A DNA stretch of 64,000 nt, from positions 204,368-268,367 of the forward strand of contig JBFMHN010000002.1 in the NCBI GenBank assembly GCA_040752895.1, written 5' to 3'. The position numbers and the translations under genes are program-made. The notes beneath the pieces are model-generated. The model had not been told where the DNA came from. It saw only the letters and a list, made by a program, of their open reading frames with translations, and did no database searches. The first letter of the stretch is position 1, and every line of letters begins with the position of its first letter. The stretch comes from Pseudomonadota bacterium. GTDB lineage: Bacteria; Pseudomonadota; Alphaproteobacteria; GCA-2746255. Of this stretch, positions 28,640 through 54,992 are shown piece after piece.

Positions 28640-28729
28640 GGAGGGGTGCCAGAGCGGTCGAATGGGGCGGTCTCGAAAACCGTTGTGCCTTCACGGGTAC
28701 CGTGGGTTCGAATCCCACCCCCTCCGCCA
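28640..28729 (+). tRNA. tRNA-Ser (anticodon CGA), CCA encoded
   Basis: GGAGGGG acceptor stem pairs with CCCCTCC. Anticodon loop CU-CGA-AA. Long variable arm (GTGCCTTCACGGGTAC), T-arm GTGGGTTCGAATCCCAC, terminal GCCA. The architecture closely matches my recollection of the 90-nt E. coli tRNA-Ser(CGA). Confidence 0.93.
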
Positions 28730-43245: not shown

Positions 43246-44574
43246 GTGAAAGCGATCTGGATTGACAGAAAACCGGAGGCGGGCACGGTTTACACGTTCC
43301 TGAACCGGTCGTGGTCGATCGTTTCGACGCTCGTTTTCATCGCCCTCGTGATCTACGCCCTCAGCCCAGAACTTCAGGGATATTATTATACGTTTTTAAG
43401 CCTGCTCGTCCTGCTGCAGCTTGCCGACATGGGCTTCGGCAGCGTCCTGACGCAGTTTTGCAGCCACGAATGGGCGCATCTCCGCTTCGATGAAAACGGT
43501 GCCGTTGTTGGATCGCCGGAAGCCAAGGCGCGCCTTGCTTCGCTCGTCGATATCGGTTTCCGCTGGTACGGCGTTGCCGTTATGGTTTTCTTCGTCGCGT
43601 TGGGCTTGGGCGGCGACCTGTTCTTCGCGACCCAGGCGGGGTCGGAAAATATCGACTGGCGGTTGCCGTGGTGGCTGCTGGCGGGTTTCGCCGCATTCTG
43701 TCTTCTGCTTGTTCCCGTCACCAGCCTGTTGGACGCAAGCCACCAGGTGGCGCTCAGCCAGCGCAATCAGCTTGCCGCCAACGTGGTCGCTTCGTTCGCC
43801 GGTTGGGCGACGCTCGGGTTGGGCGGCGGTCTCTATGCCGTGCCGGTGGTGTTCGCCGGCCGCGCCGTCCTCGGTCATGCCCTCAACACCCTGGCCGCCC
43901 GGCCCTTGCTCCGCCTTCGCCACGGCCGCGACCGGGCGTCCGCCATCGATTGGCGGCGCGAATTCTGGCCCCAGCAATGGCGCATCTTCGCAAGCTGGAC
44001 AGCGGGCTTCCTCGTGTTCCAGAGTTTCACGCCCATCGCCTTCAAGCTTTCGGGGCCGGTGGCGGCAGGCCAGATCGGCATCATGGTCCAGGCTTTTCAC
44101 GCAGTGAACCAGCTGGCCTCGGCGCGGCTTACCGTCGACCAGCCCAAAATGGGCGCGCTGGCCGCCAAAGGAGATCTCGGCGGTCTTCGGGCGCTGGTGC
44201 GGCTGGCCATCGGGCGCAATATTCTCGTCTCGGCGATCCTCGCGGCGGCGGCCGTGGCGCTGGTCTATGGCATCCAAGCCTTCGCGCCTGCCATCGGGTG
44301 GCGCTTCGGCAGCCTTCCCGCTTTTACTTTGTTCGTCTTGGCGGCCGTGCTCTATCAAGTTTCGAATGTCGAGACCGCCGCCGTGCGCTTTCAGAAGAAG
44401 GAGCCTTTCGTGACCGCCGTCTTCGTTTCCGCAATTCTGGTCGTCCTTGGCAATCTTCTCGTCGCCGCCTACGGTGACGCCGCGTGGATGGCGGTGGTTT
44501 TTACAGCCGTGTCGCTGTTCGTGCTGGTGCCCTGGGTGCACGCCATCTATCGCCGTCACATGGTGCCCGGATGA
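43246..44574 (+). CDS. polytopic membrane protein, Wzx-like oligosaccharide flippase (MOP superfamily, tentative)
   Basis: 442-aa GTG-start ORF with about 12 hydrophobic segments. Located between the priming transferase and the modification genes. No soluble domain. Confidence 0.6.
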   Translation: MKAIWIDRKPEAGTVYTFLNRSWSIVSTLVFIALVIYALSPELQGYYYTFLSLLVLLQLADMGFGSVLTQFCSHEWAHLRFDENGAVVGSPEAKARLASLVDIGFRWYGVAVMVFFVALGLGGDLFFATQAGSENIDWRLPWWLLAGFAAFCLLLVPVTSLLDASHQVALSQRNQLAANVVASFAGWATLGLGGGLYAVPVVFAGRAVLGHALNTLAARPLLRLRHGRDRASAIDWRREFWPQQWRIFASWTAGFLVFQSFTPIAFKLSGPVAAGQIGIMVQAFHAVNQLASARLTVDQPKMGALAAKGDLGGLRALVRLAIGRNILVSAILAAAAVALVYGIQAFAPAIGWRFGSLPAFTLFVLAAVLYQVSNVETAAVRFQKKEPFVTAVFVSAILVVLGNLLVAAYGDAAWMAVVFTAVSLFVLVPWVHAIYRRHMVPG

Positions 44575-45263
44575 AACGGCCGCTCGACAGCTGTCTCTTC
44601 GAATCACCCCGGAACGGCGCCGTGCTCGATGTCGGGTGTTTCGGCTTCGCGCGGGTGGCCCAGGCCGCGGGCCTCGGCCGTGGCGATCTCCGCCATGCCG
44701 GCGTCGATTTCACGGACCCCGGAAACGTGCCGGTCGGGGTCGATTTCCGCCGTGCAGATCTCAACCACGAACGCCTCCCGTTCGACGACGACAGTTTCGA
44801 CCTCGTGGTTGCATCCCATGTCCTCGAACATGTGCGCGATCCGATAGGCCTCGTCATCGACTGCCTCCGGGTCTGCCGCCCAGGCGGAAGGGTCTATATC
44901 GAGGCGCCGTCCGAGCGCGCGCTCTTTCTCCCTTCCATGCCGTTCAAGTTCGAGGCTTTCCATTCCCTTTCGTTCTTCGACGATCCGACCCATCTCTCGC
45001 GCCCATGGACGCCCCAGGCGCTTTTCCGTCTGGCGCGCCTCCTCGGCTGCGAGCCCGAGGTCACGAAACACCAGATTTCCTGGCTGATCCGGATTCTCTC
45101 GCCGGCGCTTATCCCGTTAACGCTGATTTTGCGCGACGCGCGGCGATTCGAATACTGGTCGTGGCTGACCGTGGGCTGGAGCTGCTACGCTGTCATCCGC
45201 AAGCCGGCATCCTTGCAAGGCGCCCCGGCCCTGCGTTACAGCATCCCTCCGCGCGGGCGCTAA
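44571..45263 (+). CDS. class I SAM-dependent methyltransferase (Methyltransf_11-like)
   Basis: ATG 44571 overlaps the flippase stop (ATGA). Motif I VLDVGCFG, then FDLVVASHVLEHV and RPGGRVYIE. Paralogue of 55073..55729 (shared FFDDPTH and ILSPALI segments). Confidence 0.82.
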   Translation: MKRPLDSCLFESPRNGAVLDVGCFGFARVAQAAGLGRGDLRHAGVDFTDPGNVPVGVDFRRADLNHERLPFDDDSFDLVVASHVLEHVRDPIGLVIDCLRVCRPGGRVYIEAPSERALFLPSMPFKFEAFHSLSFFDDPTHLSRPWTPQALFRLARLLGCEPEVTKHQISWLIRILSPALIPLTLILRDARRFEYWSWLTVGWSCYAVIRKPASLQGAPALRYSIPPRGR

Positions 45264-45348
45264 GTTATGCGGTCAACGCGCGCCGGCGGTGTTGCGACAT
45301 GACGACCGGTAAGACCATGAGGAAGGCCCGACAGAACCCATGGCTCAG

Positions 45349-45417
45349 AAAATCCTGGCGACCGGCGGCGCCGATATAGCCGGCGCCGCCCTGGTCCCGA
45401 AGCTCCTCGAAGAAGGC
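45349..45417 (+). pseudogene. 69-bp remnant copy of the 5' end of the epimerase gene at 49081
   Basis: Manual alignment of 45349-45417 against 49090-49158 gives 60/69 identical, including a perfect 28-nt run. Seven of the nine mismatches are explained by inversion of the segment between two palindromic GGCGCC sites (ggctatatc versus gatatagcc). The remnant encodes ATGGADIAGAALVPKLLEEG versus VTGGAGYIGAVLVPKLLEEG, so the GxGxxG motif is destroyed. Confidence 0.8.
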
Positions 45418-45591
45418 GCGCGCCTTCGCGGCCTCGCCCCGTCCGCGTTTGCGGTGCCGGTCATCGGTTCGTTTAACTTGCTGAAAAACCGGTTTGCTTG
45501 GAATCGGATTTTGTCCGGGGCGGGTATTGCGACGGTCTGTTTTCATTTATTGAAAAAAGGATCGCATAAAATATTCCATAAAAATATTTTA

Positions 45592-45807
45592 TTGCGCCTT
45601 CTGATTTTTCTTCTGTTCTTTGATGTCAATAATGCGGCTTACGCTTATTTAGATCCCGGAACAGGCAGCATAATTCTTCAACTCCTTTTTGGAGGTGTTG
45701 CCGGCGCCCTTGTGATTGCCAAATTGTATTGGCATCGCATCAAAAGCTTTTTTGGCCGGAAGGGAAACTCCAAGGGGTCTGAGGGGGGAAGGTGGGGCAG
45801 GCGATGA
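45592..45807 (+). CDS. candidate small membrane protein with YLDPGTGS motif (start uncertain)
   Basis: 3' part of track ORF 45340..45807: (L)RLLIFLLFFDVNNAAYAYLDPGTGSIILQLLFGGVAGALVIAKLYWHRIKSFFGRK.... Its TGA overlaps the ATG at 45804 of the next gene (ATGA). Only TTG/CTG starts are available (TTG 45592 chosen). The region is AT-rich. Confidence 0.4.
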   Translation: MRLLIFLLFFDVNNAAYAYLDPGTGSIILQLLFGGVAGALVIAKLYWHRIKSFFGRKGNSKGSEGGRWGRR

Positions 45808-47222
45808 CTCGGGTCCGCCTTGAACCCGGTTCCTTCCGGGATCCGAGCGGCCGGATTTATTATGTCGACGATCGGGTCTTTCGGACGATCAAAACCTATG
45901 CCGCTGAGGATTTCGAGTTTGTTCGCGGCACGGGCCTGCTCGACCGTCTTGCGGATGCGGGCCAAGTTATCCGGGCAACGCCTGTGTCTTCGGATGTCTT
46001 GAAGGACTACGGCAAGGACGCCGAGTACGTTGTCGAGCATCCGCGTTTGCCATTTATCTCCTATCCATACGAATGGCCATTTCCCGCCCTTAAGGCCGCA
46101 GCGCTACTCCAGTTGGACATTCAAATTGAGGCGCTTGCGTCTGGAATTACGCTGTCCGACGCGAGCGCTTACAATATTCAGTTTCTGGGAACGCAACCGC
46201 TTTTCATCGATATCCTGTCCTTCCGCAGGTACCGCGAGGGTGAAGTCTGGGGTGGTCATCGTCAGTTCTGCGAGCAATTCCTCAACCCGCTATTGCTCCG
46301 CGCGAAGCTCGGTGTTCCCCATAATGCCTGGTATCGGGGCTCGGTTGAGGGAATTGGGACGACCGAGCTACGGAGACTCCTCCGCTGGACGTCCAAATTA
46401 TCGCCCAATGTCCTGGTCCACGTGGTCCTGCAATCCGCCTTGCAGAGATCGTCGCTTTCGAACAGGGAAAGCAAAGGAACGCTTGCAACAGCCAAGCTGC
46501 CGCTAGCCTCCTACCGGCGGATGCTCTCGAAGCTGAGGTTATGGATTGAGACCCTTGAGCCCGCCGATACCGGAAAGACGGTTTGGCAGGATTACACGCG
46601 CACCCACAGTTACAGCGATGACGAGGTCGTTGAGAAAAAGTCATTCATCGGAAAATTTGTGGCGGCAACGAAACCTGCGATTCTCTGGGATATGGGCTGC
46701 AACACCGGCGACTATGCCGATACAGCCTTAAGAAATGGTGCCGGTTACTGTGTGGGGTTTGATTGCGATCAGGGGGCTTTGGAACTCGCCTTCTCCCGCT
46801 CCGCAACTCAAAATCTGAGGTTTCTGCCTTTGCTCCTTGATGGTGCCAACCCCTCGCCCAGCCAGGGCTGGAGCGAACGCGAACGCCTGGGTCTGGCTGG
46901 CCGTGCCGGGGCGGACGGAATTGTCGCCCTGGCATTTGTTCACCACATCGCGATTGGCCGCAACGTCCCGCTCGACGAGGTCGTTTCCTGGCTTACAAAG
47001 CTGGCGCCCCAAGGGGTAATCGAATTCGTACCCAAGCAGGATCCCATGGTTCAGGAATTGCTTGCATTCAGAGAGGACATCTTCCCGGATTATACCGAAG
47101 AGAATTTCCTGGGCGCGCTAGCCAAGCGTTCCGAGATTGTCGAAATGAAGACCGTGACCCGGAGCAATCGGAAGTTAATCTGGTACCGCAATCGCATGAC
47201 GGCAAAAGATGATGCCAGATAA
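45804..47222 (+). CDS. two-domain class I SAM-dependent methyltransferase (N-terminal GSFRDPSG-type domain)
   Basis: ATG 45804 preceded by gaggggggaagg. N-terminal ~270-aa domain (LEPGSFRDPSGRIYYVDDRVFR...YPYEWPF...SDASAYNIQF). C-terminal Rossmann MT (ILWDMGCNTGDYA...VGFDCD...IVALAFVHHI). Confidence 0.8.
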   Translation: MTRVRLEPGSFRDPSGRIYYVDDRVFRTIKTYAAEDFEFVRGTGLLDRLADAGQVIRATPVSSDVLKDYGKDAEYVVEHPRLPFISYPYEWPFPALKAAALLQLDIQIEALASGITLSDASAYNIQFLGTQPLFIDILSFRRYREGEVWGGHRQFCEQFLNPLLLRAKLGVPHNAWYRGSVEGIGTTELRRLLRWTSKLSPNVLVHVVLQSALQRSSLSNRESKGTLATAKLPLASYRRMLSKLRLWIETLEPADTGKTVWQDYTRTHSYSDDEVVEKKSFIGKFVAATKPAILWDMGCNTGDYADTALRNGAGYCVGFDCDQGALELAFSRSATQNLRFLPLLLDGANPSPSQGWSERERLGLAGRAGADGIVALAFVHHIAIGRNVPLDEVVSWLTKLAPQGVIEFVPKQDPMVQELLAFREDIFPDYTEENFLGALAKRSEIVEMKTVTRSNRKLIWYRNRMTAKDDAR

Positions 47223-49019
47223 TCTTGGCGATATTTCTGCGAAGACGGCCCGAAGGGCGTTCCTCCTCGACGCCCTGTCTTTCTTTCTTCTTTTGCTGTT
47301 CCCCTATCTTAATTTTATCGCCCGCAATGATTTTGTCTTCGAGAGCAGCAATCTGATCGTTGGCGTGGGCTTTGCTTTTTTGGCGGGGGGACTCGCACTT
47401 TTTTTGAAACTAGCGCCATTTCCCGGTCTTCGGCTTCTGATGCTGACGGGACTCATTCTGGTTTTCGCGGATTTCCAGTTTATTGGCGGCTTTCTCGTCG
47501 TTGCCGTTACCGGATCAGCCTTTCTCATTATGCTGTGTCTGCCCAGTGCCCACCGGAGCCTGGTGGTGACTGCCGTATTCGGCACGATGGTGGTCGCGAC
47601 GCTTGTATCACTGCCGTTTGCCGACGCAGGTCCGGTCACAACATCCGCCTCGACATCTTCTCCAGCGGAAAATGCGGCAAAATCGGATTTGCCTGTCTAC
47701 GTTCATATAATTCTGGATGGGCAGTTGGGTGTTGAGGGCTTTCAAGACGACGCGCCTGCACAGAAGGCCATCAAAACGGAAATCCAGGAGCTCTTCTCGG
47801 GGAATGGTTTTCGGGTATTCAGCCGGGCCTACAGTTTATATGACCGTACCCAACAGTCGCTTTCCTCTGCCTTCAACTCCGAAAAAATGGAAAGCTCGAA
47901 GGCTTGTTTTCAGAGAACGAATATCTGACATCCTATCGACTGAACCGGAACCTCTATTTCGACAAGCTCGGCGCCAGGGGCTATCGAATTAATGTTTATC
48001 AATCCATGTTCTTGGATTTTTGCGGTTCGTCAAAAAGAAATACCGGTACCTGCGTATCCTATGATCAGGGCAAGATTTCAAGCGTGAATCTGAAAGGCTT
48101 CAGTGATTCGGAAAAGCTGGAATTCGTACTATCCGTTTATTCCGACTTATTGTTTCTGAAAAAAAAACTGAAGGCATTGTATAAACCGGTTCGAAAGCAT
48201 CTCGGCAGAATCGGTTTCGATCTTCCCGCGTGGGGAGTCCACCACCTCTATCGTATCTGGCCGTTGACTGTTCTGCCCGCATTCGAACGCCTGATCGCCG
48301 ATGTAGCATCGGCGCCGCGGGGGGACATGTTTTTCGCCCATTTCCTCCTGCCGCACGAACCCTTTGCGGTCGATTCATCCTGTGGCATCCGCCGACCGGT
48401 CCTGCAATGGCCGACGAGAGTTAGCAGCCAATGGGATGGGGATCCGGTTTTGTTCAATACGCCAGGTTCGCGCCTAGCTGGATATGAGGCCTATATCCCG
48501 CAAGTCCGGTGCGCTTTGTCCAAGATAGAGAAGCTCCTGAATGTTATGAAAGAGCGGAAAGCTCTTAAGGATGCCATCGTTATCGTTCACGGTGATCACG
48601 GCTCGCGGCTAATGCTTGTCGACCCAACAAGTGAAAACAAGAACCGGTTGTCCAAACAGGATTATTTTGATGCCTTTTCGACCCTTTACGCAATCAAATC
48701 GCCGGGGATAGATTCCGGGATCGACCGGCGGATGATGTCACTGGATGACCTGCTGGGTGGCGCGCTAGAAGGGACCGGTCCGGAAAGCGCTTTCGCTGCG
48801 AATTCGCCTCATTTTATCTATCTGAGGATGGAGAACTTCGATCCCTACGGTCATTGGCTTTGTCGGGTCATCCCTATCTCGTGGATGCGGCGAAGCGATG
48901 ATTTCCTTCCCGAGACTCTGAGGCGATGGAAGGAGGGTGCATGCCGAGGTCGATCGGCTTCCATATATGCGAAGGTCGAGAAAGTTGATATGCCCGAAAT
49001 TCCAGGCGGCAATAGATAA
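47209..49019 (+). pseudogene. polytopic membrane protein with alkaline-phosphatase-superfamily (sulfatase / LtaS / EptA-like) ectodomain, split by a -1 frameshift
   Basis: ORF 47209..47928 holds about 5 TMs plus the start of the AP-type domain (VYVHIILDGQLG...DRTQQSLSS). ORF 47904..49019 continues in another frame (FAHFLLPHEPF...IVIVHGDHGSR). The frames co-open only in 47844-47928, which contains an A6 run (47882-47887). One extra A would give a single 603-aa ORF. Confidence 0.65.
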
Positions 49020-49080
49020 AGGGCTAAAGGCGGGTCAAGGGGCCTAAGGTGGCGCCTAACAAAGTAGTTTAGGGTAACGC

Positions 49081-50019
49081 ATGAAATCAAAAATCCTGGT
49101 GACCGGCGGCGCCGGCTATATCGGCGCCGTCCTGGTCCCGAAGCTCCTCGAAGAAGGCCACAACGTCGCGGTTCTCGACAGCTTTGCGCGCGGCGAGGCC
49201 CATCTCGCCGCCTGCTGCCAGTATGACGGGTTCGAGCCGGTGCGCGGCGACGCCCGCGACGAAAGGGTCGTCAAGGGTCTTGCCGCCAAGGCCGACATCG
49301 TCATCCCGCTGGCGGCGCTGGTCGGCGCGCCGCTCTGCGCGCGCGATCCGATCGGCGCCGAAACCATCAACCGCGACGCCGTGCTCATGCTGTTGAAACA
49401 CATTGGCCGGGACCAGCGCCTCGTGTTTCCGAACAGCAACAGCGGTTACGGCATCGGCCAGGGCGACAATTTCTGCACCGAGGATAGCCCGTTGAATCCG
49501 ATCTCGCTCTATGGCCAGACCAAGGTCGAGGCGGAAAAGGCAATCCTCGATTCAGGAAAGGGGATTTCGCTGCGCCTCGCCACGGTGTTCGGCCTATCGC
49601 CGCGCATGCGCCTCGACCTTCTCGTCAACGACTTTACTTATCGCGCAGTCAACGACCGCTTCGTCGTCGTTTTCGAGGGCCATTTCAAGCGCAACTATAT
49701 CCACGTGCGCGACGTCGTTGCGGCTTTCGTCCATGCGATCGGAAATTTCGAGGCCATGCGGGGCATGGCTTTCAACGTCGGCTTGTCCGACGCCAATTTC
49801 TCGAAACTGGAACTCTGCGCCCTGATCCAGCGCTACGTGCCCGACTTCGTTTTTCTCGAAGCCCCCATCGGCGAAGACCCGGACAAGCGCAACTACATCG
49901 TCTCCAACGCGCGCATCGAAGGGACCGGATTCAAGCCCGCCTGGTCGCTCGACCGCGGGGTACGCGAACTCCTCCGCGGCTACCGCATGCTTAACAACGC
50001 GCGCTTCTCGAATGTCTGA
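49081..50019 (+). CDS. NAD-dependent epimerase/dehydratase (extended SDR)
   Basis: GxGxxG (VTGGAGYIGAVL) and catalytic YxxxK (YGQTKVEAEK). First gene of a tightly packed five-gene sugar-nucleotide operon. Confidence 0.88.
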   Translation: MKSKILVTGGAGYIGAVLVPKLLEEGHNVAVLDSFARGEAHLAACCQYDGFEPVRGDARDERVVKGLAAKADIVIPLAALVGAPLCARDPIGAETINRDAVLMLLKHIGRDQRLVFPNSNSGYGIGQGDNFCTEDSPLNPISLYGQTKVEAEKAILDSGKGISLRLATVFGLSPRMRLDLLVNDFTYRAVNDRFVVVFEGHFKRNYIHVRDVVAAFVHAIGNFEAMRGMAFNVGLSDANFSKLELCALIQRYVPDFVFLEAPIGEDPDKRNYIVSNARIEGTGFKPAWSLDRGVRELLRGYRMLNNARFSNV

Positions 50020-54113: not shown

Positions 54114-54992
54114 GTGCTTGCTGAAAAATCGAGGATGGGTATGTTCAGGAAAATATTTAAGAAATATAAAGAAAAGGGGCCGATTGGCGTTTACGATTCA
54201 GTGCGTTTTCGCATAGATAGGAAAATATTTAAGCCCTACAAAAAATATATAAATATCAAAGAAAATATATTTGTTCTGAACATAGAAGATTTCGAGGCGC
54301 ATACTTGGTTCGGGAAATATCGGTATAACTGGATCGTCTGGCCGGAGCAGGAGTTCGATTGGATCGCAGACAACCTATCGGTCAAAGATGTGGTGCTGGA
54401 TATTGGCGCCCACCAGGGAATATGGAGCATGCTTTTCGCTAAATGCGCTCGCGAAGGAGAAGTGCATGCCTTCGAAACGTCAAGATTTAACTCCAACGTA
54501 GCGCGTAAGAACCTGCGTGATAATCACATCACGAACGTCGTTTTCAATAATATGTGCATTGGAAACGAAATCGGATTCGCCACCGTTAGCGATGACTCGG
54601 GTGGCGTTGCCAGCCTCCTGTCATCGGGTGCCGCACCCGCACAACGAATTACGGTGCCGATGATAACCGGTGACGAATACGCCAGAACGCACAACATCGC
54701 GCCGTCATTCGTTAAGATTGACGTTGAGGGTTTTGAAGTGGAAGCGCTGTCAGGCCTTCAGCAAGTCCTCTCTCGGCGCCCAAAACTTCTACTCGAACTG
54801 CACAATTTTAAATTTTCCGACAAGGAATCATATGTCAAAGCTTGCCTGTCCCTAGTCGATCTGACCCGCTACCGCGTAATGGCACAGACCGACCCGGGGA
54901 CCGAAATGCGAACCCTCGCGGGCCTCGGCGACCGAGAGATCGCGCTTATCGCGAGCGGCCAGAACCCCCATCTGTATTGCCGCCCGATCTAA
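54114..54992 (+). CDS. FkbM-family methyltransferase (visibly AT-rich gene)
   Basis: VLDIGAHQGIWSMLFA...GEVHAFE...FVKIDVEGFEVEAL. The likely start is the ATG at 54141 (GAGGA 5 nt upstream). Composition is clearly lower in G+C than the flanks. Confidence 0.85.
   Translation: MLAEKSRMGMFRKIFKKYKEKGPIGVYDSVRFRIDRKIFKPYKKYINIKENIFVLNIEDFEAHTWFGKYRYNWIVWPEQEFDWIADNLSVKDVVLDIGAHQGIWSMLFAKCAREGEVHAFETSRFNSNVARKNLRDNHITNVVFNNMCIGNEIGFATVSDDSGGVASLLSSGAAPAQRITVPMITGDEYARTHNIAPSFVKIDVEGFEVEALSGLQQVLSRRPKLLLELHNFKFSDKESYVKACLSLVDLTRYRVMAQTDPGTEMRTLAGLGDREIALIASGQNPHLYCRPI

What the first reader, a model, noticed from the sequence alone, without database searches (positions are those of the whole stretch)
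45335..49158. A ~3.7-kb lower-GC cassette bracketed by a duplicated epimerase 5' end that carries a palindrome-flanked micro-inversion
The first ~70 nt of the epimerase gene (49090-49158) also occur at 45349-45417, directly after the methyltransferase gene ending at 45263. By manual alignment 60/69 positions match, including a perfect 28-nt run. Seven of the nine mismatches vanish if the segment between two palindromic GGCGCC sites is inverted (ggctatatc in the intact gene, gatatagcc in the remnant). Weaker similarity seems to extend back to the ATG (45335-45348 versus 49076-49089). Everything between the copies (about 45418-49075) is visibly more A/T-rich than the flanks and carries three genes unrelated to the neighbouring operons. 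This looks like the scar of an insertion or cassette exchange into an ancestral methyltransferase-epimerase junction, with the old 5' end left as a dead remnant whose GxGxxG motif is destroyed. The track's 155-aa ORF 45340..45807 is therefore a chimera of remnant plus new sequence.
Basis: seen in the sequence. Interest (0 to 1): 0.7.

Follow-up and report, generated by a model that had tools for sequence, protein, structure and literature searches.

The report
Recombination scar with a flipped hairpin loop
A 78-base dead copy of the start of a sugar-epimerase gene marks where a foreign three-gene module was spliced into a bacterial surface-polysaccharide gene cluster, and a later replication slip flipped nine bases inside that dead copy. 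It is a clean example of two well-known processes, not a new kind of element.

Summary
45349-45417 and 49090-49158 match at 60/69 positions, and at 67/69 once the GGCGCC-flanked 21-mer is reverse-complemented. The 27-mer inside the repeat occurs only twice in the window.

The stretch between the copies is the lowest-GC 3.66 kb of the window (0.53 vs 0.62; GC3 0.49-0.65 vs 0.76-0.82).

Corrections:
- The cassette is not unrelated to its neighbours. In L085 and L086 the same module sits directly upstream of the same epimerase operon.
- The module is a small signal-peptide membrane protein, a kinase-like/SAM-methyltransferase fusion, and a 603-aa membrane sulfatase-like enzyme.
- The "239-aa" and "371-aa" ORFs are that last gene, split by an A6/A7 frameshift.

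The micro-inversion is recent. A sister strain about 99% identical still has the uninverted, apparently perfect repeat. One template switch across the quasi-palindrome encoding GxGxxG explains eight of the nine mismatches: the spacer inversion plus homogenisation of the right arm.

Both processes are known: gene remnants in polysaccharide loci, and inverted-repeat spacer inversion.

The parts
43246..44574 (+). Wzx-like O-unit flippase gene. Its stop overlaps the methyltransferase start (ATGA at 44571).
   Evidence: NCBIfam NF041503 E=3e-21. The Wzx-MT pair with the same overlap recurs in L091-L095.
44571..45263 (+). Class I SAM-dependent methyltransferase (230 aa), the resident 'type A' gene. 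GC 0.645, GC3 0.78.
   Evidence: Pfam Methyltransf_11/23. In L095 and L183 its homologues are directly followed by the epimerase orthologue.
45264..45339 (.). Intergenic region between the methyltransferase and the old epimerase start. GC 0.63, unrelated to 49020-49080.
45340..45417 (+). Dead 5' remnant of the epimerase gene: ATG plus 25 codons. Bases 45349-45417 are the 69-nt copy of 49090-49158.
   Evidence: tblastn of the epimerase matches residues 1-26 only.
45364..45390 (.). Quasi-palindrome in the remnant. Arms are 45364-45372 (GGCGGCGCC) and 45382-45390 (GGCGCCGCC), now perfect. The 9-nt spacer 45373-45381 (GATATAGCC) is inverted relative to GGCTATATC in the intact gene.
   Evidence: (I1). 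It folds as a DNA hairpin at -17.8 kcal/mol. The sister strain L096/L083 has the uninverted state.
45418..45549 (.). Start of the non-epimerase sequence after the illegitimate junction 45417|45418. The first ~45 nt (45418-45462) are 80% GC and of unknown origin. An AT-rich leader follows.
   Evidence: No similarity to epimerase, Wzx or any fetched locus. GC steps 0.78 > 0.53 > 0.45 > 0.28.
45550..45807 (+). Small membrane protein gene, probable TTG start, 85 aa. It has a signal-peptide-like N-terminus, A-x-A|YLDPGTGS, one TM helix and KLYWHR. It is the true C-terminal part of the 155-aa ORF.
   Evidence: E=2e-24 to the 83-97-aa proteins of L085/L086. A small-protein match lies next to c476 (nearly always just upstream) in 69 of the 80 metagenome loci. 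Median length is 83-86 aa.
45804..47222 (+). c476: two-domain enzyme, an N-terminal protein-kinase-like domain plus a C-terminal class I SAM methyltransferase domain.
   Evidence: More than 7900 homologues. AF2 pLDDT 83. MT fold. The N-domain's top 50 PDB matches include no non-kinase protein: they are kinase structures plus two pre-40S ribosome entries. Invariant D119-x4-N124 and D136.
47209..49019 (+). c604: one gene for a 603-aa membrane-anchored sulfatase-superfamily enzyme. In this window it is split into 239-aa and 371-aa ORFs by a 1-nt deletion in the poly-A run 47882-47887 (A6 here, A7 in L083, L084 and L088).
   Evidence: Weak Pfam Sulfatase hit, E=0.005.
49020..49089 (.). Cassette-side intergenic region plus the first 9 nt of the intact gene (ATGAAATCA). 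GC is still low (0.47 at 49040-49099) and jumps to 0.70 from 49100.
49081..50019 (+). Intact NAD-dependent NDP-sugar epimerase/dehydratase gene (312 aa). Bases 49090-49158 are the intact copy of the repeat. The quasi-palindrome 49105-49131 encodes GGAGYIG.
   Evidence: Pfam Epimerase E=5e-30. GC3 0.815..

Best explanation
Bases 45340-45417 are the truncated start (26 codons) of this lineage's own NDP-sugar epimerase gene. The fragment still lies just downstream of the methyltransferase gene that precedes that epimerase in 'type A' relatives.

It was cut off when a lower-GC three-gene module was recombined into the locus. The module consists of a small signal-peptide membrane protein, a kinase-like/SAM-methyltransferase fusion, and a membrane sulfatase-like enzyme. 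In 'type B' relatives this module lies directly upstream of the same epimerase operon.

The right end of the exchange was resolved in register at the very start of the epimerase gene, using epimerase homology. The left end was joined illegitimately 78 nt into the resident gene. As a result nt 10-78 of the gene now occur twice, 3741 nt apart. This is the pattern expected of homology-facilitated illegitimate recombination or a comparable copy-choice event. No mobile-element machinery is involved.

The duplicated 69 nt were originally identical. Later, in the window's lineage only, a replication template switch occurred across the quasi-palindrome GGCGGCGCC-N9-GGCGCCGTC, which encodes the GxGxxG motif. 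It copied the spacer and the left arm from the opposite strand. That inverted the 9-nt spacer and turned the right arm into a perfect complement (T>C at 45389). In the dead copy this cost nothing.

Shown: the duplication, its sharp ends, the foreign composition, the type A and type B relatives, and the uninverted sister-strain state.
Inferred: the recombination pathway, which partner was the recipient, and the template-switch mechanism.
For: Duplication and inversion:
- Established.
- The remnant is 67/69 identical to its own gene, against at most 55/69 for 81 orthologues.

Relatives:
- Type A loci have MT directly followed by the epimerase: L095 and L183-L185.
- Type B loci have Wzx - small - c476 - c604 - epimerase: L086, and L085.
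- L085 and L095 become alignable (79%) from 2 nt before the epimerase ATG. The gene start is therefore a natural allele boundary.
- Other relatives carry still other genes in that slot.

Composition:
- Cassette GC3 is 0.49-0.65 against 0.76-0.82 in the flanks.
- In L085 and L086 the same genes have the same GC as their flanks, so the dip is not intrinsic to these genes.
- GC jumps from 0.47 to 0.70 at about 49100.

No mobile element:
- No transposase or integrase domain on either strand, and no terminal inverted repeats.

Timing:
- In the sister strain from SRR22388031, contig L096 runs from MT through ATGGCTCAG into ...GGTGACCGGCGGCGCCGGCTAT. Contig L083 starts GTCCTGG...AAGGC|GCGCGCC. Both stop at 30-mers shared with the intact copy.
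- Divergence between the two strains is uniform: 98.95% in the left flank, 98.8% in the cassette, 99.2% in the epimerase. The hybrid locus therefore predates their split and the inversion is younger.

Template switch:
- L + revcomp(spacer) + revcomp(L) gives exactly GGCGGCGCC GATATAGCC GGCGCCGCC.
- Arm homogenisation together with spacer inversion is the published signature of this mechanism (PMC8604942).

Precedents:
- HFIR (PMC3240628) and its use to explain displaced gene fragments (PMC5361080).
- Gene remnants in O-antigen clusters as signs of recent events (PMC7685785).
Against: - No strain of the same species with an empty (pure type A) or pure type B locus was found. The type A and B relatives are only 63-74% identical in protein, so the ancestral state is inferred across a large distance.
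- The donor is unknown, so microhomology at 45417|45418 cannot be checked.
- The 45 nt after the junction (45418-45462) are 80% GC with no identifiable source. The junction may therefore be more complex than a single joint.
- The six bases between the ATG and the repeat differ completely (GCTCAG vs AAATCA), although the ATG is in register. A one-step model does not explain this by itself.
- Nine bases of the sister-strain remnant (45379-45387) are not covered by a remnant-specific contig.
Confidence: 0.8

Rival explanations
1. Same junction, opposite direction. The lineage originally had the type B arrangement (Wzx - small - c476 - c604 - epimerase). An incoming fragment from a closely related type A strain (Wzx - MT - first 78 nt of the epimerase) was integrated by homologous recombination on the left, in Wzx or PGT. 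On the right it joined illegitimately upstream of the small gene.
For: Structurally this is equivalent: one homologous and one illegitimate joint. Type B relatives have Wzx abutting the small gene. It needs no duplication of resident DNA, because the two 69-mers would be alleles from two close strains. It also accounts for the differing first three codons and upstream regions as an allele boundary, as seen between L085 and L095.
Against: The methyltransferase, remnant and epimerase operon have host-like GC3 (0.78-0.82), while the cassette does not (0.49-0.65). A long-resident cassette should have drifted towards host composition. No type B strain of this species was found. All five contigs carrying this methyltransferase at 97-100% identity show the hybrid wherever they reach far enough.
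Confidence: 0.15
2. A mobile element (insertion sequence, transposon, integron cassette or small island) inserted into the epimerase gene, and the 69-nt repeat is its target-site duplication.
For: A direct repeat flanks a compositionally foreign insert.
Against: There is no transposase, integrase or recombinase domain in any ORF of either strand between 45265 and 49090. There are no terminal inverted repeats at the insert ends. Sixty-nine nt is far longer than transposase-made duplications, which by general knowledge are usually 2-14 bp. The right end of the insert carries an in-register epimerase start (ATG at the same distance from the repeat), which points to homology rather than site-specific insertion. 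The small gene, c476 and c604 are ordinary conserved neighbours of each other and, in two lineages, of this operon.
Confidence: 0.02
3. The stub and its flipped spacer are functional. The remnant would supply the ribosome-binding site and start codon for an N-terminally extended small protein (the 155-aa ORF). The 9-nt spacer would flip back and forth as a heritable micro-switch that changes residues 12-14 (GYI <> DIA) or the stability of a 5' hairpin.
For: The reading frame from 45340 stays open into the small gene in both strains. Both orientations exist in nature among ~99%-identical strains. Spacer inversions by template switching are reported to be reversible (PMC8604942). The hairpin is stable at -17 to -18 kcal/mol.
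Against: An open frame across the 44 intervening codons is expected by chance 29% of the time. In 57 relatives the small protein has a median of 26 residues before the YLDPGTGS motif, against 102 here. An 85-aa version with a normal signal-peptide-like N-terminus can start at TTG 45550. The Shine-Dalgarno-like AGGAAGG lies 13 nt from the ATG, which is far. No recombinase is present. Only two states were seen, each fixed in its own lineage.
Confidence: 0.03

Closest known systems
Gene remnants at recombination junctions of polysaccharide (O-antigen/capsule) gene clusters
   Same: A truncated copy of a pathway gene is left beside a compositionally atypical block in a surface-polysaccharide locus. 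The locus here is Wzx/Wzy/Wzz-type, with a phosphoglycosyltransferase and an NDP-sugar operon. In E. coli, 9 anomalies among 178 O serogroups are gene remnants, taken as signs of a recent event (PMC7685785).
   Different: Here both parental arrangements can be seen in relatives (MT-epimerase, and module-epimerase). The stub is a 5' end that keeps its own start codon. The junction can be placed to the base (45417|45418).
Homology-facilitated illegitimate recombination (HFIR; de Vries & Wackernagel 2002, Prudhomme et al. 2002, as cited in PMC5361080; shown in E. coli conjugation in PMC3240628)
   Same: One end of the incoming DNA is anchored by homology (the epimerase gene). The other end is joined without homology. 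Foreign genes are trapped and a displaced fragment of the resident gene is retained, as proposed for orphan immunity genes in Vibrio T6SS clusters (PMC5361080).
   Different: The pathway is inferred from the product only. The illegitimate joint lies 69 nt inside the homologous anchor, so a short direct repeat results instead of the more usual deletion. A replicative copy-choice event, or integration of a circular intermediate, would give the same product.
Template-switch mutation at short inverted repeats (quasipalindrome correction and spacer inversion; Ripley model; PMC8604942, PMC7202029)
   Same: Imperfect 9-bp arms become perfect and the spacer between them is exactly reverse-complemented in one step, producing a cluster of eight apparent substitutions. 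The REG2 case in yeast shows the same combination (PMC8604942).
   Different: The event is seen in a bacterial pseudogene fragment, with the unaltered paralogous copy 3.7 kb away and an unaltered sister strain as controls. The 9-nt spacer is longer than the 3-5 nt spacers listed for yeast genes. The palindrome is created by the GGC/GCC codons of the GxGxxG motif.
WbdD of E. coli O9a (bifunctional kinase and methyltransferase that caps the O-polysaccharide; PMC3482155)
   Same: The cassette protein c476 combines a protein-kinase-like domain and a class I SAM-methyltransferase domain, and sits in a polysaccharide locus.
   Different: The domain order is reversed (kinase-like first), and no coiled coil was identified here. 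A profile search of the PDB at E<=10 found no sequence similarity to WbdD, and WbdD was not among the top 50 fold matches. The locus has Wzx/Wzy-type rather than ABC-transporter features. This is a resemblance in domain content only.

Membership tests
Recombination scar (truncated gene remnant beside an acquired block) | The fragment is a genuine copy of a neighbouring gene, closer to it than to any orthologue | tested here: met
   67/69 to its own gene against at most 55/69 for 81 orthologues. Alignment score is about 26 sd above shuffles.
Recombination scar (truncated gene remnant beside an acquired block) | Relatives exist with the uninterrupted junction (MT directly followed by the epimerase) | tested here: met
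   L095 with a 39-nt gap. L183-L185 with a 4-nt gap.
Recombination scar (truncated gene remnant beside an acquired block) | The intervening block is compositionally foreign to both flanks | tested here: met
   GC 0.531 against 0.624 +/- 0.029. GC3 0.49-0.65 against 0.76-0.82. There is no such dip in L085 or L086.
Recombination scar (truncated gene remnant beside an acquired block) | An empty-site or donor-type strain within the same species | tested here: not met
   Every contig carrying the 97-100% identical methyltransferase shows the hybrid where it extends far enough. No closer type A or B locus turned up in the 80 best GTDB loci, the 80 metagenome loci, or the protein searches.
Homology-facilitated illegitimate recombination | One end in register with a homologous gene, the other end without homology | tested here: met
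   The right end has the ATG in register with a GC switch at about 49090. The left end shows no homology beyond 45417.
Homology-facilitated illegitimate recombination | Short microhomology at the illegitimate joint, and dependence on RecA or DNA uptake | not testable with these tools
   The donor sequence is unknown, and the organism is known only from metagenome assemblies.
Transposable element or integron cassette with target-site duplication | A transposase or integrase gene, terminal inverted repeats or attC, and a short fixed-length duplication | tested here: not met
   No such domains on either strand. No terminal inverted repeats. The repeat is 69 nt.
Template-switch spacer inversion at a quasi-palindrome | Short inverted repeats flank a spacer that is exactly reverse-complemented relative to the ancestral state | tested here: met
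   Arms 45364-45372 and 45382-45390; spacer GATATAGCC against GGCTATATC. The ancestral state is given by the intact copy and by sister strain L096.
Template-switch spacer inversion at a quasi-palindrome | Arm homogenisation accompanies the inversion, with one arm copied from the other | tested here: met
   The right arm is GGCGCCGTC in the intact copy, and the sister strain has T at the informative position. It is GGCGCCGCC in the window remnant, which is the reverse complement of the left arm.
Recombinase-driven invertible DNA switch (fim/hin type) | A site-specific recombinase nearby and an invertible segment long enough for synapsis (hundreds of bp) | tested here: not met
   There is no recombinase domain in the ORFs scanned between 43246 and 54992. 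The inverted segment is 9 nt.

The most novel reading that the evidence does not exclude
The epimerase stub is not inert. It would give the acquired module a resident ribosome-binding site and start codon, producing an N-terminally extended small membrane protein. Its GC-rich hairpin with a flippable 9-nt loop would act as a recombinase-free, replication-driven micro-switch, whose two states are the ones seen in the two sister strains.
Probability: 0.03. Interest if true: 0.55.

Novelty: new member of a known kind. Interest (0 to 1): 0.3.

Why it matters
This is a well-documented natural example of how surface-polysaccharide loci are rebuilt. The slot in front of a conserved sugar-nucleotide operon holds different decoration genes in different lineages. 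Here two alternatives have been stacked by one imprecise recombination, and the junction can be read to the base.

It also captures a template-switch mutation in bacteria with both controls present: an unaltered paralogous copy and an unaltered sister strain. Eight "substitutions" in 27 nt turn out to be a single event. That matters for anyone dating pseudogenes or inferring selection from clustered changes.

For annotation:
- The 155-aa ORF should be replaced by an ~85-aa gene plus a pseudogene fragment.
- The 239-aa and 371-aa ORFs should be merged into one frameshifted gene.

None of this changes current understanding of the mechanisms involved.

Tried and rejected
- **Extended homology beyond the 69-mer**, which would have suggested an older, longer pseudogene with a gene-conversion patch. 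Local alignment against shuffles gave p=0.47 downstream and p=0.89 upstream. tblastn of three epimerases matched residues 1-26 only. Rejected, apart from the in-register AACnCATG.
- **Is 45418-45591 the 3' end of a donor Wzx gene?** There is no similarity to four Wzx-like proteins or to any fetched locus.
- **Source of the GC-rich 45 nt after the junction.** No significant match anywhere in the window on either strand.
- **Mobile-element genes.** None in forward or reverse ORFs.
- **Promoter and terminator scans of 44900-49300.** Counts were no higher than in shuffles.
- **GTDB scan with the epimerase.** The 80 best loci are at most 69% identical and none carries the cassette or the methyltransferase. 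It was useful only as an outgroup set.
- **Selection on the chimeric ORF.** An open frame across the junk segment is expected 29% of the time.
- **Sequence-level link of c476 to WbdD or any solved kinase.** None at E<=10; only fold-level matches.
- **Organism identity.** Not established. The closest named relatives of individual genes are mostly Alphaproteobacteria.


Full report
**1. The observation**

- An ungapped comparison of 45349-45417 with 49090-49158 gives 60/69 identities.
- The 21-mer 45367-45387 is the exact reverse complement of 49108-49128. Restoring it gives 67/69.
- The repeat finder returned the two direct blocks with one spacing (3741 nt) and a 25-nt, 100% inverted match between the two places.
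- The local alignment score of the 69-mer is 56, against 10.6 +/- 1.7 for shuffles.
- The 27-mer within the repeat occurs only at these two places in 64 kb, with none expected.

Conservation of the Rossmann motif does not explain the match. The corrected remnant matches its own genome's gene at 67/69, but 81 orthologous 5' ends at no more than 55/69 (median 45).

The similarity has sharp ends.
- Local alignment finds nothing significant downstream of 45417 or upstream of 45349 (p=0.47 and 0.89).
- Protein-level searches match epimerase residues 1-26 only.
- The ATG is in the same register in both copies, with AACnCATG matching 7/8. The six bases between the ATG and the repeat differ completely.

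**2. Composition**

- The stretch between the copies has GC 0.531, the lowest of any 3.66-kb stretch in the window (mean 0.624, sd 0.029).
- Third-position GC is 0.49-0.65 in its genes, against 0.76-0.82 in the genes on both sides.
- On the right, GC jumps from 0.47 to 0.70 within 60 nt of the epimerase start.
- On the left, the first 45 nt after the junction are still 80% GC before the sequence turns AT-rich.

**3. What the genes are**

The window carries a Wzx/Wzy/Wzz-type polysaccharide locus.

Left of the remnant:
- a phosphoglycosyltransferase;
- a Wzx-like flippase;
- a class I methyltransferase whose start overlaps the flippase stop.

Right of the cassette is an operon:
- epimerase/dehydratase;
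- nucleotidyltransferase;
- GDP-fucose-synthase-like reductase;
- sugar C-methyltransferase;
- GHMP kinase.

This operon is plausibly a pathway for a C-methylated deoxy sugar. That reading is an inference from family names only.

The cassette is not the three ORFs that a six-frame list suggests.
- **Small protein.** The last ~85 codons of the 155-aa ORF encode a small protein with a signal-peptide-like N-terminus, A-x-A|YLDPGTGS and one TM helix. A match to it lies next to c476 (nearly always just upstream) in 69 of the 80 metagenome loci, and the protein is 83-86 aa long (median) in 57 relatives. The window ORF has 102 residues before the motif, against a median of 26. A TTG at 45550 would give a normal 85-aa product.
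- **c476.** This protein has more than 7900 homologues and no Pfam family. A confident model (pLDDT 83) shows a C-terminal class I SAM-methyltransferase fold. The N-terminal domain's top 50 solved matches include no non-kinase protein: they are kinase structures plus two pre-40S ribosome entries. It also has an invariant D-x4-N and a downstream D.
- **c604.** The 239-aa and 371-aa ORFs are one 603-aa gene for a membrane-anchored, weakly sulfatase-like enzyme. The window and L089 have A6 at 47882-47887. L088 differs from the window at only three other positions in 14.5 kb, and it, L083 and L084 all have A7 and an intact frame.

**4. Relatives**

- **Type A.** L095 has PGT - Wzx-like - methyltransferase - 39 nt - epimerase - the rest of the operon. 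L183-L185, from a different lineage, have the methyltransferase homologue 4 nt from the epimerase orthologue.
- **Type B.** L086 has PGT - Wzx-like - small - c476 - c604 - epimerase - operon. L085 shows the same order from the Wzx 3' end onward.
- **Allele boundary.** L085 and L095 are alignable at 79% from 2 nt before the epimerase ATG onward, and not before it. In that lineage the two arrangements behave as alternative alleles bounded by the gene start.
- **Other occupants.** Two further relatives have yet other genes in the slot: a reverse FkbM-type methyltransferase, and a 469-aa protein.

The window is a stack of type A and type B, with the stub between them. In L085 and L086 the cassette genes have the same GC as their flanks. 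The dip in the window is therefore not a property of these genes and indicates later arrival.

**5. How the scar probably arose**

Any model needs one in-register (homologous) exchange at the start of the epimerase gene and one illegitimate joint at 45417|45418.
- Homology-facilitated illegitimate recombination is the best-documented route to such products (PMC3240628; applied to displaced gene fragments in PMC5361080).
- A copy-choice event, or integration of a circularised fragment through the 69-nt homology, would give the same sequence.
- Composition favours the cassette as the newcomer into a type A locus. The mirror-image event, a type A fragment entering a type B locus of a close strain, cannot be excluded.
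- Nothing suggests a mobile element. There are no transposase or integrase domains on either strand and no terminal inverted repeats, and the repeat is far too long for a target-site duplication.
- Gene remnants of this kind are a recognised anomaly of O-antigen clusters (PMC7685785).

**6. The micro-inversion**

A sister strain about 1% diverged, from SRR22388031 and SRR22388024, provides the polarity.
- Contig L096 runs from the methyltransferase through the remnant-specific ATGGCTCAG into AAAATCCTGGTGACCGGCGGCGCCGGCTAT and stops.
- Contig L083 starts GTCCTGG...GAAGAAGGC and continues into the remnant-specific GCGCGCC.
- Both break at 30-mers shared with the intact copy, as expected if the repeat is perfect there.
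- The sister remnant therefore has the uninverted GGCTAT, and T at both positions where the window has C.
- Divergence between the strains is uniform across the left flank, cassette and epimerase (98.95, 98.8 and 99.2%). The hybrid locus is thus older than their split and the inversion is younger.
- The window state is fixed in four assemblies from different samples.

The intact sequence is the left arm GGCGGCGCC, the spacer GGCTATATC and the right arm GGCGCCGTC. Left arm + revcomp(spacer) + revcomp(left arm) equals the window remnant exactly. A single template switch therefore accounts for the seven spacer mismatches and for T>C at 45389. Only T>C at 45359 remains as an ordinary substitution.

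Arm homogenisation together with spacer inversion is the published signature of polymerase template switching at short inverted repeats (PMC8604942). Both versions fold into stable DNA hairpins, at -16.8 and -17.8 kcal/mol. The palindrome is built from the GGC/GCC codons of GGAGYIG and is conserved in orthologues. In a working gene the flip would destroy the NAD-binding motif. In the stub it is neutral.

**7. Function of the stub**

I found no evidence for one.
- The open frame from 45340 into the small gene is expected by chance 29% of the time.
- The small protein is much shorter in relatives.
- Promoter and terminator scans found no more sites than in shuffles.

A role in translation start or as a flippable hairpin is kept as the low-probability novel reading.

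**8. Limits**

- No same-species strain with a pure type A or type B locus was found, and the donor is unknown.
- The 45-nt GC-rich segment after the junction is unexplained.
- Nine bases of the sister remnant are inferred rather than seen.
- The organism is not identified.

**9. Verdict**

The phenomenon combines two known processes, which is why the interest score is moderate to low.

Noticed in passing
window 47882-47887 (within 47209-49019): The poly-A run is A6 in the window, L081/L087 and L089, but A7 in L088 (which differs at only 3 other positions in 14.5 kb), L083 and L084. A6 splits a 603-aa membrane sulfatase-like gene into the 239-aa and 371-aa ORFs. This could be slippage-based on/off variation of a polysaccharide-modifying enzyme, a fixed mutation, or a homopolymer sequencing error.
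   Followed up: partly
window 45550-47222; loci L085-L176: The small signal-peptide protein (A-x-A|YLDPGTGS, TM, KLYWxR) and the ~465-aa kinase-like + SAM-methyltransferase protein form a very widespread conserved pair. c476 has more than 7900 homologues, and a small-protein match lies next to it in 69 of the 80 metagenome loci. Neither has a Pfam or NCBIfam family. Some sources label c476 homologues 'ribosomal protein L11 methylase PrmA', which looks like a misannotation.
   Followed up: partly
window 45777-45790: The G-run at about 45783 has one more G in the window than in the sister strain (L083/L084). This changes the C-terminal tail of the small protein and its overlap with the c476 start.
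   Followed up: no
window 45418-45462: A 45-nt stretch of 80% GC lies directly after the illegitimate junction, before the AT-rich leader. No source was found in the window or in any fetched locus. It may be filler DNA from the joining event.
   Followed up: partly
window 54114-54992: An FkbM-type methyltransferase gene just downstream of the sugar operon is also low in GC (0.49; GC3 0.57). It is probably a second recently acquired decoration gene in the same locus. A related gene occupies the slot upstream of the epimerase in L177/L178.
   Followed up: no
L085, L086, L095, L177-L181, L183 (region upstream of the epimerase orthologue): The position directly in front of the epimerase start codon is a hypervariable slot across relatives. 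It holds a methyltransferase, the small-c476-c604 module, a reverse FkbM methyltransferase, or a 469-aa protein. In L085 against L095, homology resumes 2 nt before the ATG.
   Followed up: partly
window 49105-49131; L177 and L179 epimerase starts: The quasi-palindrome GGCGGCGCC-N9-GGCGCCG is inherent to high-GC coding of the GGAGYIG motif, and its core is conserved in orthologues. SDR genes of high-GC genomes may therefore carry a built-in template-switch hotspot that is visible only in pseudogenes.
   Followed up: no
window 28640-28729: A tRNA-Ser (CGA) gene is the only RNA gene detected in the window. It was not examined as a possible island boundary.
   Followed up: no
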